NCBI GenBank assembly: GCA_002633005.1
Contig: NMRA01001051.1
Location: 1 to 54,864, forward strand
Direction of reading: 5' to 3'
Length of the DNA stretch: 54,864 bases
From: Phoronis australis
Lineage: Eukaryota; Animalia; Phoronida
The notes beneath the pieces were generated by a model. The model saw only the letters and a program-made list of their open reading frames with translations, had not been told where the DNA came from and searched no databases. Positions 18,576-30,700 of this stretch are shown in pieces. Position numbers and translations under genes: made by a program. The first letter of the stretch is position 1, and each line of letters opens with the position of its first letter.

Positions 18576-18721
18576 CTAGTCGACGGGGAATACTTCGTTA
18601 ACCAACAAACGGCTAGTCGACTCCCAAGCTGTGTAAGCATCGTTGTAGCTATGTCCAGGACACGTCTGCAGGTATAATCTAATGTTATAGCTCCCTGCTG
18701 GAAGTTCGCAGTATCCGCCAA
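18576..18721 (-). CDS. Gene A terminal exon: CTHRC1-like domain 3, last part and stop
   Basis: ttacag|[55 protein letters not shown]...E motif, TAG stop. Confidence 0.9.
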
Positions 18722-21700
18722 CTGTAAAGGAAAGAATTAGAATATATTCATGATGGTTTATTTCAGAAAACATCTGAGGCCGCAACAAGAGCAGACTTCT
18801 ACCCACGCGGTTGGTCTGCGTTCCGTTGACTCAAAACACTAGCGAATCACTCTGTGACAAGAACTGTTGCCTTATGGAACTGAAGCACTGATTTGTAACC
18901 CATGGTCCATCATTCCAGTTTCAAAGGCCAGTCCCGTCACTGGACATCGTTTTCTACGGTACGCTATTAACTGAGTTACCAAATAAAATGCACTCGTTTT
19001 TCAATCGCGTAATTTTGTAGGAATTTGCTTAACCTTGTTTTTCTGACCGTTTTGCCTCTAGGGAATGCATCCCTGAGCTTTGCACTAGCCTAGGTCGGTT
19101 AGCGTAATCTGTGATAATTTTAATTTCCTAAATAAGCAGAGTGACCAATGACTTATTTATTGTTTAAACTTTTATAAAGAAGTCTGTTAAAATTGACACC
19201 TGTCGGTGTTCTACTGTCCTTAATAATAACAGTAATGCCAATACAGAGTGGCAGGAAATATCGTTTAAGAACTCTTTGCACTAAGTTTTATTGCTCCAAC
19301 AATCCGCTCTATCTGTTCACAGATGTTAAAATATCTGCAATTTTATTTCGGCTTATCTTAATAGGAGTTAGCATTTCTCTAATAGGAAATCACCCTCTTT
19401 AAACACAAGTACACAGCCTCGTCACGTGTGACAATAGTCTGTGAAAGCGTAGCAGCTTCGAGACAATACTCACAGATTGAAGCATGATGTTGATTATCGT
19501 CCACGTTGTCCGTCCTGTGGAACAATCTTTGATAAACTAGTGTTGAAATAGGTCCAGGTGTTGAACATTCGGCTCCGTTGAAGGTCACGTACCACCGGGA
19601 ACATCCGGGTGTGCTGTAGGACGATTCGTACTGCCGAAGATCTCCGCTGTACTGTACCGCTAGCATACTCTGTGATGACTTCTTGGTGTATGTGACCGAC
19701 TGCGGACAACATTGAATTGATGTGAAAATCTCACTGAATAAAAACATGAGCGTTATACCATAATATGAAAGTCATGCGATGTGCACCTGTTGGTCCTACT
19801 CAGATTGAGACCCCTACCTGTTTCAAATACAGCAGTTCGTATAACTAGCAAACACATTGGATGAGGTTTGCAACCCTAGGTTTGACCTATGTGCAAGTGC
19901 AATTAAGTATGCAGATACGGATTAAGGGGTCCAGTTTTCCGGTTGCAAAAGACAGTCCCAAATAGGCACTCAGCCAAGTTTCCAAAATCTACTGCGTATT
20001 TGCTGACTAGTGAAAACACTGATTGTCCTATCTTATGCTGTTTGAGTATCATTACTTTGGCAATTTTGTTTCCATACAAATCGGGATTGAGCTCTACACT
20101 GAATTATCAATATTTTTGAAAATAATTGGTGATCATTTCATGCAAAGCCCCAAATTAAAGGACTACGTCCCTAAATATTTTGATTGACTGGAAGACTCAT
20201 TTTTGTTATATTAATAGAAAAGGCCATTAGTCAAAAAAGATAAAGATATATAAATATCATATCGGGGGGTGTCTCGGGGAGCTCAAACGAGCTCTGCGGA
20301 GCAGAATGAACACATTAATTAGCTCCACAGGCTTTAAAAAGGCAAAATTTGACTTAATAAGGGATTAAAAATTTATTGCGTCATGCTTCTATTACTAAAA
20401 TATCTTCATATCGTCGACATTCAGCTCGTAGGCTACAGTTCACTGCACTCCCACCCTCCTTCATTTGTGCAATGTTTTTTGGACTACTGTACAGGGGTAT
20501 TGCTTGTAAATTTTTGAAACTTTTTAAGATATGTTTTGTTTAATAATTGAAAATCAAAGTCAATTAGCATGTGAATAGTTTTCCAGTAAAGTGACAAATC
20601 GGGGAACTGCAGCCGTGTTCGAACACTAAGCAAAGGTCAATGACAATTCATGTTAGGAGCGCATTGTTGGGGATAAAAATGTTTTGTTTGTTGAAACGTG
20701 TATTTTTTATCTTTCAACAGCCAGTAAAGCCGGTTCCGATTTGCTGTCAAGTTACGGTACGAAATGCGCTGTGGGTAATCACACGGCAATTGCTCTTACT
20801 TTGCATTAGTTTCTCGATATGGCGCTGAAGAAAAGACATTTGCCGATCTAGAAAGGTTTTTCTACTAGTTCATTACCAGAAATGGTGCTGTTGTTGAAAT
20901 TTGACGTCCCATCGCGATGACTCAGGACACTCCAATAGTGTTGGCTGAGGGAGAGGCGGCGTATTCATAATTTGAACTTAGGATTGTATTAAATACCACT
21001 CGTCATTCATGTATGTAATGAACTGATAAAATGTGGACAAAAATAATCAGTTTCGTACAATAAGAGCCAGAACCAGAATCAAAAACAACCTAACAAAAGA
21101 ATGATGCGTACATGTATACACGCTCACGGTGATATCAATACGTTTTCAAGGACAACAAGGCCGTCTTTCAGGTATCGTTCCTTAACTGATGCCAAGGAAT
21201 TAACGTCACGAAAATATACGGAAATAGCCGATGACGTTTTTGATATCGGCCGAGGTACAAAATTGTGCTTAAAAAGGCTTTTAGTTTGATAACAGAGCAG
21301 ATGTAAACATTATAAAATGTTACATATTACTTTATCTCGTATAACTTTTAGAGTTTTTGAACTACAGTATATTAAGACTTTGAGATAAGGAATTTAATCA
21401 ATTTTGCTGTGTCACTTGGTCAGTTTGGTTTCCGTTTTGTCAAGACATCATGAAAGTAATAGCAAGAAATTGGCGTAACCTATCTTTCTATTTTGAAAAC
21501 CAGTTCAATCTATTGAGATTTTTAAATAATTAATTAAATACCATATTTAACAACGTTTGAACATGTCAAAAGTACCGTTGCTTGAACTGTCATTTTTGTA
21601 GTTTTCTCTTGACTCAACGCTTTTGAACAAATATCCAAGTCGGGTTAAATCATGTTGGTCAGACAGATCACGTGGTACACACTGTTAATCTTGAAAAAGC

Positions 21701-27700: not shown

Positions 27701-30700
27701 ACGGTGTTGTTAAATGCTCCTTACCCGGGCACTGTCCCCATCTGCCATCGCTGTCGTAATTAGAAGTGGTCGCGCACCACGGTTGATTGTGATCCGCCTC
27801 AGTACACGTACTGTACGATATGCCTTTGTAAACGAAGGGGAACGTGCACGATGAACCGCCGGCATTTCCACCGTAAGTTGGCAGGTTAGTATCTGTGAAA
27901 AGTGATATGTCATTACGTTTGGTGAAGTACATTAAGGTGAAACGAGTTTTGACATAATTGGATTATTTACAATTAAATTGGCTAAGCTTGCATTGCAATC
28001 ACGTTTTTCCTGTTTGTTTTTGAATTGTTGAGTATCAGATCAGCTATGAGGAGAGCATTCATGAAGCAGAGCTCACTATCATGGTGTCACATATACATGT
28101 GAATGGTTGGTGTCGGTTCAAAACCGTTTTAGCCGGATGATGGCACGACAAGCACGCGAGCCCAGACCCGAACAATTTAATTAGACTCGCGTTTTTCAAC
28201 AATGATGATTTCCATTGGTCTTCGGGAGGTTTTAAAGACATGCTTCCCTGCTCTCCTTGTTTTAACGTTAACAGTAGCGGTACGTTTTACACATGGAGAA
28301 ATTGTTGGCAGCCACTTCGCGCTATTTGCTGTGAGTTCATACATGTACCACGTGACTGCGTTGTGCGACAAGGACAAGAGCCACTCACCGAAAGATCGTC
28401 TCAGGTCATTTTCTTCTACAGTCATGGACACACCGTTGCCACCCCAGCCCGTCTGACCATCCACCACATTGTATCCACTGCATGCACCGATACGGAACTT
28501 GACCACGATGTCGCCGGAGATTGGTAAATCACAGATACCATCAACTGAAATTGCGAAAGCAGACAGATAAAAGATGTAAAATACAGAACAATGGCTGCGT
28601 GGGTACCATTGTCTTACCGATCGAACTGTTGACGTAACGAGCTACAGGAGCTAACAATAATCCGTCCAAAATTCTTTCAGTTGCAACACAGATGCAAACA
28701 TATTAGACTCTTACCGTTGGCAGGGCGATAATCATCCCTTGCTACGCCTTTGTACCACACTATCTCAATCTTCCCGGGCGAGGAACATTCTTGATCGTTG
28801 AAAGTGAAGTACCAACGATTGCAGCAACCTCCGCAGTTATACCCGGCTCGAATGATACCTCGGAAACGAACCCTCAATGAGGTGAAAGAGTATTGTTTCT
28901 TGAAAGTTCTTGTCTGAAACATAGAGGTAGTACGTGTCCATAGTGCGCACAACAGCGGTAGCCTCAGGCAAGCTAGTTTTTCCCAACAGTGGGGGGCATT
29001 GGATTACACTTTTGACAGAGAGTCACTAGAACATCAGAATGCTAGTCCTCTTAAAAAGAGGCCCACTTGTAGCGAGCTTCCATGAAAATGTCCCGGATGA
29101 TAAGGTTTTATTTTCAAAAGATCATCTTTTTGTTAATTATACTTCTGGACAACGTCGAATTTCGTCATTCTTTCGGCGCAAAAAACATGTCTAAATTACC
29201 ATTTCTTTTCCACTAGAATCCGTTTCAGTTCTACTTAATCCGCGACTGGTGTTTGTGCACTACGGGTTGTCGAAATCTTGGCATTACTGTGCACACCCTG
29301 CAGTAAGCGGCTTCATGCAATAATGCCACGCTACTCTCTGATTAAAGTTGGACTGAAACACTATTTTGATCACATTTGTTTTAGACCAAAACAGAATTAG
29401 CTCGTACGTAAATAAAGATATGTTGATCTGACGTTTCGGTTTATAACTTTAAACCATTCTCAAGGCATCAGTTCACATACTCTAACAGGCTACACAGGTG
29501 CAAAACGTGACGCTTACCTGTGCAGTTTTTTAAACTGTGTCACCTGTTTAATTATGTGAACTGTTGCCTTGAGAATGGTTTAAAGTAATGAAAAGGAAGG
29601 AGACATCGGATCAACATGTCTTTATTTACGTACGCGCTAATTTTAAAGTTCGTGAAAGACTATATTATTGCACCGGCTTTTCGTCTAAACTTCCTGACAT
29701 TCCGACAAGAAGTTTATCCAAGCTTGGCATAATCCGACAAAGTTGTCTCGAGGTGTCTTCAGCTTAGTTTATTTTAAAAACTTCAGTAAGCTCCGCGGGG
29801 TTTTACGAACAACTGAATTTTAACTCATTAAGATCGAAGTAGTTAAACACACGCCATGTTGTCACAAATTAACAGAAGTTACAAAATAAATATTAAAAAC
29901 CTTCTGCAAAGTCATTCATAAAGAATTTGTTAAATGCACGACACTTTTCATTGTTTACAGTCTTTATTCCCTTACGTTCGTACCTTCGGAACAAAACTCT
30001 ACTCTCAACTGAACATAAATACAGTAACTGACATAGCGACATAATTAAAAGACACACGATATTTCGAAACATACTTGTCTCATTCTCAAGTGAAGATAAA
30101 ATGACGCAGTAATGCCACCACAGAGTATAAGCTGATGACACACACAGTGAAACACGGCGGGTGTGAAATACTGCAAAGAATGACTAATGAAGGGGGGTAA
30201 CAGGAAAGTCACGCAAACAAGTGTAACGTGCGGCGCGACCCTGTTTGCAGCTCATTGGCAAAACAGGCTTCTCAAAAGCAAGTAAAAGGGACTCTAATAC
30301 TTTCAAACGCAGCACATCTTGCTCCACGTAGCGAATTGACGTGTTTTCCACAATTTCTTGAGGGTGATTGATGCTCACACACGGAATTCCGTGTGTCCTT
30401 CATCATGTTTCCGCAAGACCACTTTTCAGTAGGTGGCTCTGTGTCAGAGGGTATTTATAGTACTGATCATTCGGGAATCACAGCTGTCCAATCAGCTATC
30501 AGCGGACCTCGGATTTCACAGATTAGATACGAGTGCCCAAACAAGGGGTGACCTTTCGTCATCCCGCCGCTTTGCAATTACATGTACTAGCCTTCCTCAA
30601 CGCACCAAAGTGTGTTTTTTCGAACTGACAAAGAGGCAAATTCAGGAACTGAAATAACTCCAGGTTCACTTTGTCGACTTAATGATGATATTTTGGGACG

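What the first reader, a model, noticed from the sequence alone, without database searches (positions are those of the whole stretch)
18576..28913. Three tandem CTHRC1-like domains may form a single-chain pseudo-trimer replacing collagen-driven trimerisation
Seen: exactly three divergent CTHRC1-like domains in one chain and no collagen repeat. Known: collagen-helix proteins present three globular heads per trimer. Inference: the gene may encode three non-identical heads intramolecularly, producing an asymmetric binding surface.
Basis: inference. Interest (0 to 1): 0.7.

Follow-up and report, generated by a model that had tools for sequence, protein, structure and literature searches.

The report
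Single-chain three-part CTHRC1 head, no collagen
This invertebrate gene carries three different CTHRC1-type domains and no collagen repeat, and in its relatives the three domains are predicted to fold together into one C1q-like head, so it likely makes a secreted protein with a built-in lopsided recognition surface instead of a three-chain trimer.

Summary
Largely right, but incomplete. Nine exons (28913-18576, minus strand) splice into a 479-codon frame with three CTHRC1_C domains (27-30% identical) and no Gly-X-Y run. One exon is absent, probably in an assembly gap, and a T-run frameshifts the signal peptide.

Five of five relatives with an intact head region (four Lingula, one unnamed) have exactly three domains, near-fixed linkers and position-specific motifs. 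AlphaFold2 models of two relatives superpose on single-chain C1q and adiponectin trimers (Z 22.8-26.4, rmsd 3.4-3.9 A, 332-340 residues). Domain 1 docked on domains 2-3 as a separate chain only weakly (0.55, best control 0.03). The window's own protein was not folded and the survey is small.

Collagen-less forms are footnoted in print and triple-C1q proteins are known in bivalves, but nine searches found no account of this architecture. The scan earlier noted a bacterial triple-CTHRC1 head on other DNA. Verdict: new variant; pseudo-trimer about 0.8; ligand untested.

The parts
40244..40613 (-). Gene A exon 1: signal peptide plus PAN/apple domain; a run of nine T near 40581-40589 puts the ATG out of frame with the PAN frame
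   Evidence: Pfam PAN_1 E 5.4e-6; frames; 54% identical to the intact exon of paralogue B
33423..33534 (-). Gene A exon 2: cysteine-rich neck module (5 Cys; the sixth lies in the next exon), phase 0 to 1
   Evidence: aligns with a six-Cys block invariant in 6 of 6 relatives that cover it
31653..31653 (.). Single N, likely an assembly gap holding the missing exon 3 (first strand of domain 1, phase 1 to 0)
   Evidence: Only N in the window; 5 DNA contigs continue with other sequence behind 31652; exon not found; paralogue B has it at 6509-6415
28715..28913 (-). Exon 4: CTHRC1_C domain 1, middle
   Evidence: Pfam PF25815 E 4.6e-13
28389..28544 (-). Exon 5: CTHRC1_C domain 1, end
   Evidence: Pfam PF25815 E 4.6e-4, below cut-off alone; junction to exon 4 in 5 diverged, paralogue-like RNA reads
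27725..27892 (-). Exon 6: fibronectin type II domain, a symmetric phase 1-1 exon inserted in the domain 1-2 linker
   Evidence: Pfam fn2 E 5.2e-19; best PDB sequence matches MMP-9 and MMP-2 FN2 repeats; linker 72 = 16 + 56 residues
26144..26226 (-). Exon 7: invariant pre-domain Cys and first strand of domain 2
   Evidence: Local profile E 1.5e-11; up to 17 RNA reads at 26210
23974..24175 (-). Exon 8: domain 2, middle
   Evidence: Pfam PF25815 E 1.3e-6
22201..22353 (-). Exon 9: domain 2, end, and start of the conserved 2-3 linker
   Evidence: Pfam PF25815 E 5.9e-7; exact splice 22353/23974 (CT..AC) in 5 + 2 RNA reads from two runs
21784..21890 (-). Exon 10: rest of the 2-3 linker and first strand of domain 3
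   Evidence: Local profile E 9.2e-11; linker length 23 as in 5 of 6 relatives
19474..19699 (-). Exon 11: domain 3, middle
   Evidence: Pfam PF25815 E 2.6e-13
18576..18721 (-). Exon 12: domain 3, end, and stop codon
   Evidence: Pfam PF25815 E 1.3e-5; terminal stop
1965..8932 (-). Tandem paralogue B: six exons (8932-8549, 6865-6754, 6509-6415, 3669-3471, 2835-2677, 2132-1965) = signal peptide, PAN, Cys-rich neck, whole domain 1, FN2; runs off the window
   Evidence: Stop-free 372-codon frame; Pfam PAN_1 and CTHRC1_C; pS 0.71 against pN 0.12 versus gene A over 3 of the 5 shared exons

Best explanation
The gene has exons for a signal peptide, a PAN domain, a cysteine-rich neck, three unequal CTHRC1-type domains and an FN2 domain, and the three CTHRC1-type domains likely fold together within one chain into a C1q/TNF-like three-part head that would act as a secreted recognition surface. 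Shown: the exons, domains, reading frame, absence of collagen, low-level spliced expression at one junction, and the same three-domain plan in relatives. Predicted on relatives: jelly-roll fold of each domain and their packing as a pseudo-trimer. Inferred: covalent linkers replace the collagen helix as the device that holds three heads together; the invariant Cys before domain 2 staples the base of the head to the neck; the FN2 exon loops out from the base without disturbing the head; three non-equivalent grooves between domains give an asymmetric site. Most likely job (inferred, about 0.4 of the functional options): lectin-like recognition of glycans on microbes or matrix, with PAN as a second binding module and FN2 tethering the protein to collagen matrix.
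For: Three domains in 5 of 5 relatives with an intact head region (P0001, P0002, P0003, P0013 from Lingula anatina; P0015 unnamed). Linker 1-2 is 16 residues in 6 of 7 relatives (P0016 one shorter in the alignment) and 72 = 16 + 56 in gene A. Linker 2-3 is 23 residues in gene A and 5 of 6 relatives. Position-specific motifs are shared by window genes and relatives, and domains group by position in a tree (d3 97/94, d2 89/87). AlphaFold2 of P0001: pLDDT 73, pTM 0.69; top matches 4dou, 5hzf, 5hkj at Z 26.2-26.4, rmsd 3.4-3.9 A over 336-340 residues, next unrelated row Z 8.5. AlphaFold2 of P0015: pLDDT 64, pTM 0.70; Z 22.8-23.6, rmsd 3.4-3.8 A over 332-340 residues; Foldseek TM 0.55-0.58 by target length. 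ESMFold2 with domain 1 as a separate chain: score 0.55, best of 3 controls 0.03, runs agree in at least 89% of contacts, partner pLDDT at least 81; rated weak support (mark reached by 51 of 78 solved and 2 of 108 mismatched pairs, but at 0.60 or under by only 5 of 78 solved and all 4 mismatches that passed). The pre-domain-2 Cys is invariant in 7 of 7 relatives and domain 1 has an even Cys count. Best single-domain fold matches are TNF-like bacterial lectins BC2L-C and PLTL, and Pgp3 (Z about 12, rmsd 2.3-3.1 A).
Against: The window's own spliced protein, with its FN2 insert, was not folded; the models are of relatives about 29% identical. Only the best of five models was searched each time; the other four had mean pLDDT 59-65 and 56-63. 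No interface or error matrix was returned. Folding programs have seen engineered single-chain C1q/TNF trimers and may build one from likeness, and the split-chain pass is of the 'halves of one gene' kind. Six of the seven multi-domain relatives come from one species. With the first strand and linker removed the tree weakens (d2 67/77, d3 82/72, d1 in two groups), and window domains are not closer in core identity to their own position class. P0011 is a 167-residue Lingula model holding domain 3 alone, and coral P0004 has two domains around a collagen stretch. The exon 9-10 junction that ties domain 3 to the chain was not listed in RNA, and read-through of exon 9 ends in a stop after four codons. 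Gene A has a frameshift in exon 1 and lacks exon 3 in this assembly. No ligand evidence exists.
Confidence: 0.78

Rival explanations
1. Three chains assemble in parallel and each domain position forms its own inter-chain homotrimer (three stacked C1q-like heads), or domain 1 swaps between chains; the repeat adds avidity and does not replace trimerisation.
For: C1q-type domains form homo- or heterotrimers (PMC10672478, passage). Position-specific conservation would also fit. A monomer prediction cannot see inter-chain partners. The invariant odd Cys could bond between chains. The 72-residue linker in gene A would allow domain 1 to swap.
Against: A fixed count of three is expected for a closed single-chain head and not for stacked homotrimers. 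Two models close the trimer within one chain. No collagen run exists to register three chains.
Confidence: 0.12
2. The three domains are independent beads on a string, as in many mosaic invertebrate matrix proteins, and the count of three is inherited history, not a constraint.
For: An FN2 exon was tolerated between domains 1 and 2. The family sample is small and mostly one species. Separately expressed domains of a triple-C1q mussel protein each bind microbes (PMC5519582, passage). Docking support is weak.
Against: Linker lengths are nearly invariant at about 29% identity. pTM 0.69-0.70 and rigid superposition over about 340 residues. Domain 1 docks on domains 2-3 without a linker while controls score 0.00-0.03.
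Confidence: 0.06
3. Gene A itself is a decaying copy or makes a shorter product; the working three-domain protein comes from paralogue B or another copy.
For: Exon 1 frameshift at a T-run. Exon 3 absent. Two of the three splice junctions seen in RNA are in diverged, paralogue-like reads. Expression is low.
Against: 1440 nt of open frame over nine exons with intact splice sites. pN 0.12 against pS 0.71 versus paralogue B. Exact exon 8-9 splice in 7 reads. The missing exon's intron holds an assembly gap. This rival concerns this copy only and does not exclude the best explanation for the family.
Confidence: 0.15

Closest known systems
Cthrc1 family (Leclere et al. 2020, PMC7058181; Pfam PF25815 CTHRC1_C)
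   Same: Same C-terminal domain; secreted; lineage-specific tandem duplication; domain modelled in that paper as C1q-like and able to trimerise.
   Different: No collagen triple-helix repeat; three domains per chain instead of one; PAN, Cys-rich neck and FN2 added. The paper's table S3 footnote notes collagen-less proteins in Lingula and Phoronis but gives no architecture.
Uncharacterised Lingula anatina proteins LOC106162620, LOC106178942, LOC106174493, LOC106180315
   Same: Signal peptide, PAN, six-Cys neck, three CTHRC1_C domains, same linkers and position motifs.
   Different: About 29% identical to gene A; no FN2; named 'uncharacterized' by the sources.
Bivalve multi-C1q proteins (smultiC1q; HcC1qDC5/6, CfC1qDC-2)
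   Same: Secreted, collagen-less, 'three in most cases' tandem C1q-type heads (PMC6835236); pattern recognition reported (PMC5519582).
   Different: Built from true C1q domains, with no Pfam C1q match here; no PAN or FN2 described; no intramolecular trimer claimed in the passages I read ('trimer' 0 times in PMC5519582, 'intramolecular' 0 times in PMC10672478).
Engineered single-chain trimers: adiponectin 4dou, C1q head 5hkj/5hzf, Cbln1 5kca, APRIL-BAFF-BAFF 4zch
   Same: Predicted three-domain arrangement superposes at Z 19-26, rmsd 3.4-3.9 A.
   Different: Those are laboratory fusions at 4-9% identity; this would be a natural one, and it is a prediction.
Gelatinases MMP-2/MMP-9 FN2 inserts
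   Same: Closest solved sequences to exon 6; a whole FN2 unit inserted into a host protein.
   Different: One copy, no protease; it lacks the Gly-Arg-x-Asp-Gly loop seen in the MMP repeats, whose arginine I recall (no call) as part of the gelatin site, so collagen binding is uncertain.

Membership tests
Cthrc1 (sensu Leclere et al. 2020) | Conserved CTHRC1 C-terminal domain | tested here: met
   PF25815 hits on six exons, three domains
Cthrc1 (sensu Leclere et al. 2020) | Collagen triple-helix (Gly-X-Y)n repeat before the domain | tested here: not met
   Longest run 3 in gene A, 2 in gene B, 1-3 in the three-domain relatives, against 13-27 in canonical proteins; gene A's missing exon is about 31 codons and has no repeat in paralogue B. 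So not a Cthrc1 proper.
Cthrc1 (sensu Leclere et al. 2020) | N-terminal signal peptide | tested here: inconclusive
   Hydrophobic N-terminus judged by eye in paralogue B and relatives; out of frame in gene A as assembled; no predictor run
Cthrc1 (sensu Leclere et al. 2020) | Conserved intron in the 5' part of the domain | tested here: inconclusive
   Each repeat has a phase-0 intron after its first strand; the paper's figure S3 with the exact position was not seen
C1q/TNF structural superfamily | Jelly-roll beta-sandwich protomer | tested here: met
   Predicted models of relatives: all-beta domains; single-chain matches Z about 12 (BC2L-C, Pgp3, PLTL) and 9.7 (C1q chain C)
C1q/TNF structural superfamily | Three protomers packed about a three-fold axis | tested here: met
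   Met in prediction only: rigid superposition on five single-chain trimers; weak docking pass
C1q/TNF structural superfamily | Trimer shown by experiment | not testable with these tools
   No solved CTHRC1-type structure found by sequence
C1qDC / smultiC1q proteins | Pfam C1q domain | tested here: not met
   No C1q or TNF family hit at E up to 1 on exons or up to 0.1 on 11 relatives
C1qDC / smultiC1q proteins | Binding of microbial patterns or glycans | not testable with these tools
   Needs binding assays
PAN/apple domain | PAN_1 profile and apple fold | tested here: met
   E 5.4e-6 and 2.6e-6, above cut-off; model residues 40-124 match apple domains at Z 8.2-8.5
Fibronectin type II domain | fn2 profile with four Cys and aromatic cluster | tested here: met
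   E 5.2e-19, whole profile; alignments
Fibronectin type II domain | Gelatin/collagen binding | not testable with these tools
   Needs an assay; one loop differs from the MMP repeats

The most novel reading that the evidence does not exclude
An undescribed invertebrate family has turned the collagen-trimerised CTHRC1 head into a natural, covalently fixed heterotrimer in one chain, each of three positions under its own constraint, on a disulfide-stapled PAN neck; in this lineage a collagen-binding FN2 module was plugged into the base, so the protein would borrow collagen in trans instead of carrying it. With bivalve triple-C1q proteins and a bacterial triple-CTHRC1 head, this would be a recurrent convergent route from C1q-type homotrimers to asymmetric single-chain receptors.
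Probability: 0.3. Interest if true: 0.68.

Novelty: new variant of a known kind. Interest (0 to 1): 0.5.

Why it matters
No CTHRC1-type domain has a solved structure in the PDB copy searched, and the C1q-like trimeric head of CTHRC1 rests on 2020 ab initio models (PMC7058181). A natural single-chain triple head is independent evolutionary support for that trimer and a ready-made, collagen-free construct for solving it, which matters because human CTHRC1 is studied in fibrosis and cancer. It also offers a clean case of how a symmetric trimer becomes an asymmetric one: covalent linkage frees the three protomers to diverge. It is a variation on a known theme (triple-C1q proteins exist in bivalves), not a new kind of system.

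Tried and rejected
No whole genome is held, so other paralogues and the gap could not be searched. A single-exon homologue search found nothing; a four-exon profile and a full-length relative did. The deep search of 1.84 billion representatives never ran (queue full in all 10 tries), so the domain-count survey rests on 7 multi-domain relatives. A metagenome locus scan did not complete. ESM Atlas: only single-domain CTHRC1_C clusters at 0.84 for exon 4, no usable hit for P0001; no evidence either way. PDB sequence searches found no CTHRC1 relative. No indexed RNA holder was listed; three raw RNA runs of the same species label were laid instead. The first read lay was swamped by repeats and showed no exon junction. 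The second listed 3 of the 8 junctions of exons 4-12. The T-run and exon 3 were not resolved by reads. Adding single window exons to the protein alignment misplaced them among the repeats, so that alignment was not folded. The window's spliced protein could not be sent for folding. No tRNA genes. Rejected: a hidden upstream collagen exon; reading P0014 and P0016 as true two-domain proteins (P0014 starts inside domain 1, P0016 stops in the 2-3 linker at the position of gene A's exon 9 end). Look-ups of earlier scan findings by sequence and by genome gave nothing.
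Full report
SETTING. The window is intron-rich animal DNA (39% GC, one N at 31653). The organism was not determined. The same protein plan occurs in the brachiopod Lingula at about 29% identity.

THE OBSERVATION. On the minus strand, nine exons from 28913 to 18576 have AG/GT ends and compatible phases and give 1440 nt with one terminal stop. Pfam CTHRC1_C (PF25815) matches the middle and end exon of each of three repeats (6 of 6 exons; E 2.6e-13 to 4.6e-4). The first-strand exons of repeats 2 and 3 are found by a local profile. Core identity between repeats is 27-30%. There is no collagen repeat.

(a) A 168-nt, phase 1-1 FN2 exon lies between domains 1 and 2 (E 5e-19), closest to the FN2 repeats of MMP-9 and MMP-2. 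(b) The gene starts 11.7 kb further up, with a signal-peptide/PAN exon (40613-40244) and a Cys-rich exon (33534-33423). (c) A tandem paralogue B lies downstream at 8932-1965, with the same first six exons in a stop-free frame, running off the window. Over 3 of the 5 shared exons pS is 0.71 and pN 0.12. (d) Gene A has two blemishes. Its ATG is out of frame with the PAN frame at a run of nine T. The exon for the first strand of domain 1 is absent: a profile that finds the other three such exons at E 1e-9 or better finds nothing in that intron. The window's only N is in this intron and 5 DNA contigs run on there with other sequence, so a gap is the likely cause. Neither point was resolved by reads.

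EXPRESSION. Three raw RNA runs of the same species label (one study, about a fifth of each read) show low depth on the exons. Of the 8 junctions of exons 4-12, 3 are listed. Exon 8-9 is exact (22353/23974, CT..AC) in 5 + 2 reads. Exon 4-5 (5 reads) and FN2-exon 7 (3 reads) are seen only in diverged reads from one run, which look like paralogue transcripts. The exon 9-10 junction is not listed, and unspliced exon 9 would stop after four more codons. The tie of domain 3 to the chain therefore rests on splice sites, phase and the conserved linker.

RELATIVES. A profile of four window exons found 10 proteins among 485 candidates, and P0001 found 6 among 7994 scored. Seven distinct proteins share the multi-domain plan. 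P0001, P0002, P0003 and P0013 (Lingula anatina, 593-603 aa) and P0015 (unnamed, 502 aa, lacking the N-terminus) have exactly three CTHRC1_C domains; P0012 is an isoform of P0001, also with three. P0014 and P0016 (Lingula) score two, but P0014 begins inside domain 1 and P0016 ends within the 2-3 linker, so I read them as truncated models. Against a fixed count: P0011 (167 aa, same cluster as P0001) is domain 3 alone with an unrelated start, and coral P0004 has two domains around a collagen stretch. The other six hits are single-domain proteins, four with collagen. None of the relatives has FN2. The deep representative search never ran, so this survey is small and mostly one species.

SIGNS OF FIXED GEOMETRY. 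The 1-2 linker is 16 residues in 6 of 7 relatives (P0016 was missed by the pattern and is one shorter). In gene A it is 72, exactly 16 plus the 56-codon FN2 exon. The 2-3 linker is 23 residues in gene A and 5 of 6 relatives, 24 in the sixth. Each position keeps its own motifs across window genes and relatives: Cys-x-Glu-x-Pro before domain 1 (7 of 7), Cys-x5-Phe-Asn before domain 2 (8 of 8), and Pro and Trp in the first strand of domain 3 (7 of 7). A tree of 30 domains groups them by position (d3 97/94, d2 89/87, d1 two groups). Without the first strand and linker this weakens (82/72, 67/77), and the window's domains are not closer in core identity to their own class; the signal lies mostly at the base of the head. 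The Cys before domain 2 is invariant in 7 of 7 relatives, domain 1 has an even Cys count, and 5 of 6 chains with a complete N-terminus have an odd count upstream (my reading of the columns; P0002 is the exception). I infer a disulfide from the start of domain 2 to the neck, which needs the domain starts close together, as at the base of a C1q-type trimer. An inter-chain bond is the alternative.

STRUCTURE PREDICTION, ON RELATIVES. AlphaFold2 on P0001 with a 7-row alignment gave pLDDT 73 and pTM 0.69. Foldseek ranked single-chain adiponectin (4dou) and single-chain C1q head (5hkj) first, TM 0.55 by target length. VIA-align gave Z 26.2-26.4, rmsd 3.4-3.9 A over 336-340 residues spanning all three domains, then 5kca (24.7) and 4zch (22.6), then a drop to 8.5. 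P0015, 37% identical to P0001, repeated this: pLDDT 64, pTM 0.70, Z 22.8-23.6, rmsd 3.4-3.8 A. The two runs share the same seven sequences, so they are not fully independent. As a test of the place where gene A has its insert, domain 1 of P0001 was folded as a separate chain with domains 2-3 by ESMFold2 without alignments. Score 0.55, best control 0.03, runs agreeing in at least 89% of contacts, partner pLDDT at least 81. The tool rates this weak: the mark was reached by 51 of 78 solved and 2 of 108 mismatched pairs, but at 0.60 or under by only 5 of 78 solved and all 4 mismatches that passed. It is a split-gene pair resembling solved C1q/TNF trimers, so likeness may drive the pass. Only the best of five models was searched each time, and no interface data were returned.

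HOW IT MOST LIKELY WORKS. Canonical CTHRC1 trimerises through its collagen repeat and carries one C1q-like head per chain (PMC7058181). Here an old triplication put three heads in one chain, linkers took over the job of the helix, and the three positions diverged under separate constraints (inferred). The product would be a secreted monomer with a PAN domain and Cys-rich neck under a three-part head with three unequal grooves. FN2 entered later as a symmetric exon in a base linker and would loop out (inferred). For function I favour lectin-like recognition (about 0.4): the best single-domain fold matches are TNF-like lectins, triple-C1q mussel proteins bind microbial patterns (PMC5519582), and the family is tandemly expanded. 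Matrix adaptor (about 0.3) and signalling modulator like vertebrate CTHRC1 (about 0.25) remain open. A shared fold shows no function.

LITERATURE. PMC7058181: I read part 2 of 8 of the text, section 9, search passages, a supplement search and supplement part 99. It defines Cthrc1 as collagen repeat plus domain, models the domain as C1q-like, and footnotes collagen-less proteins in Lingula and Phoronis without architecture. Figures and the other supplement parts were not seen and may bear on novelty. PMC6835236, PMC5519582 and PMC10672478: passages only. Nine full-text searches (listings only) returned no paper describing a triple-CTHRC1 protein or a natural single-chain CTHRC1 head; subscription journals are mostly not covered. 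An earlier AI note of this scan (e1-1519963) reports a myxobacterial collagen fibre with a triple CTHRC1-like head predicted as single-chain; I did not test it and do not count it as support.

VERDICT. A real feature: a member of an undescribed PAN plus triple-CTHRC1 family, here with an FN2 insert. It is not a Cthrc1 proper (no collagen) and not a C1qDC protein by sequence, but is predicted to work like a single-chain C1q/TNF heterotrimer. New variant of a known kind; pseudo-trimer about 0.8; interest 0.5.

Noticed in passing
window 1965-8932 (-): Tandem paralogue B with intact signal peptide, PAN, Cys-rich neck, whole domain 1 and FN2; saturated at silent sites against gene A; its domains 2 and 3 would lie off the window.
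   Followed up: yes
window 23974-24175 and 22201-22353 (-): Domain 2 of gene A lacks both cysteines of a pair present in all 7 other domain-2 sequences, a matched loss that fits a folded protein.
   Followed up: partly
window 27725-28913: RNA reads with about 10 differences each span the exon 4-5 and FN2-exon 7 junctions; the letters at the FN2 end match neither gene A nor gene B exactly, hinting at a third FN2-bearing copy or a distant allele.
   Followed up: no
window 44800-48034 (+): Broken LINE-like element upstream of gene A; Pfam zf-RVT at 47408-48034 (E 2.3e-7), other fragments without a Pfam hit.
   Followed up: partly
window 26588-26943: High-copy repeat in the intron after FN2, with RNA depth up to 283 against 1-4 on the exon bins; no tRNA called by ARAGORN.
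   Followed up: no
window 32797-33388 vs 10915-11476; 19943-20235 vs 895-1195: Non-coding stretches 68% and 72% alike between the two gene regions, probably dispersed repeats.
   Followed up: no
window 30699-30816: 17-bp tandem repeat, 6.9 copies, in the intron that also holds the gap.
   Followed up: no
P0012 (Lingula isoform X1): Differs from P0001 by two extra copies of a 17-residue piece in domain 1, perhaps an assembly or annotation artefact.
   Followed up: no
P0004 (Porites evermanni, 288 aa): Two CTHRC1_C domains, the first partial, on either side of a collagen stretch; possibly two neighbouring genes merged in one model.
   Followed up: no
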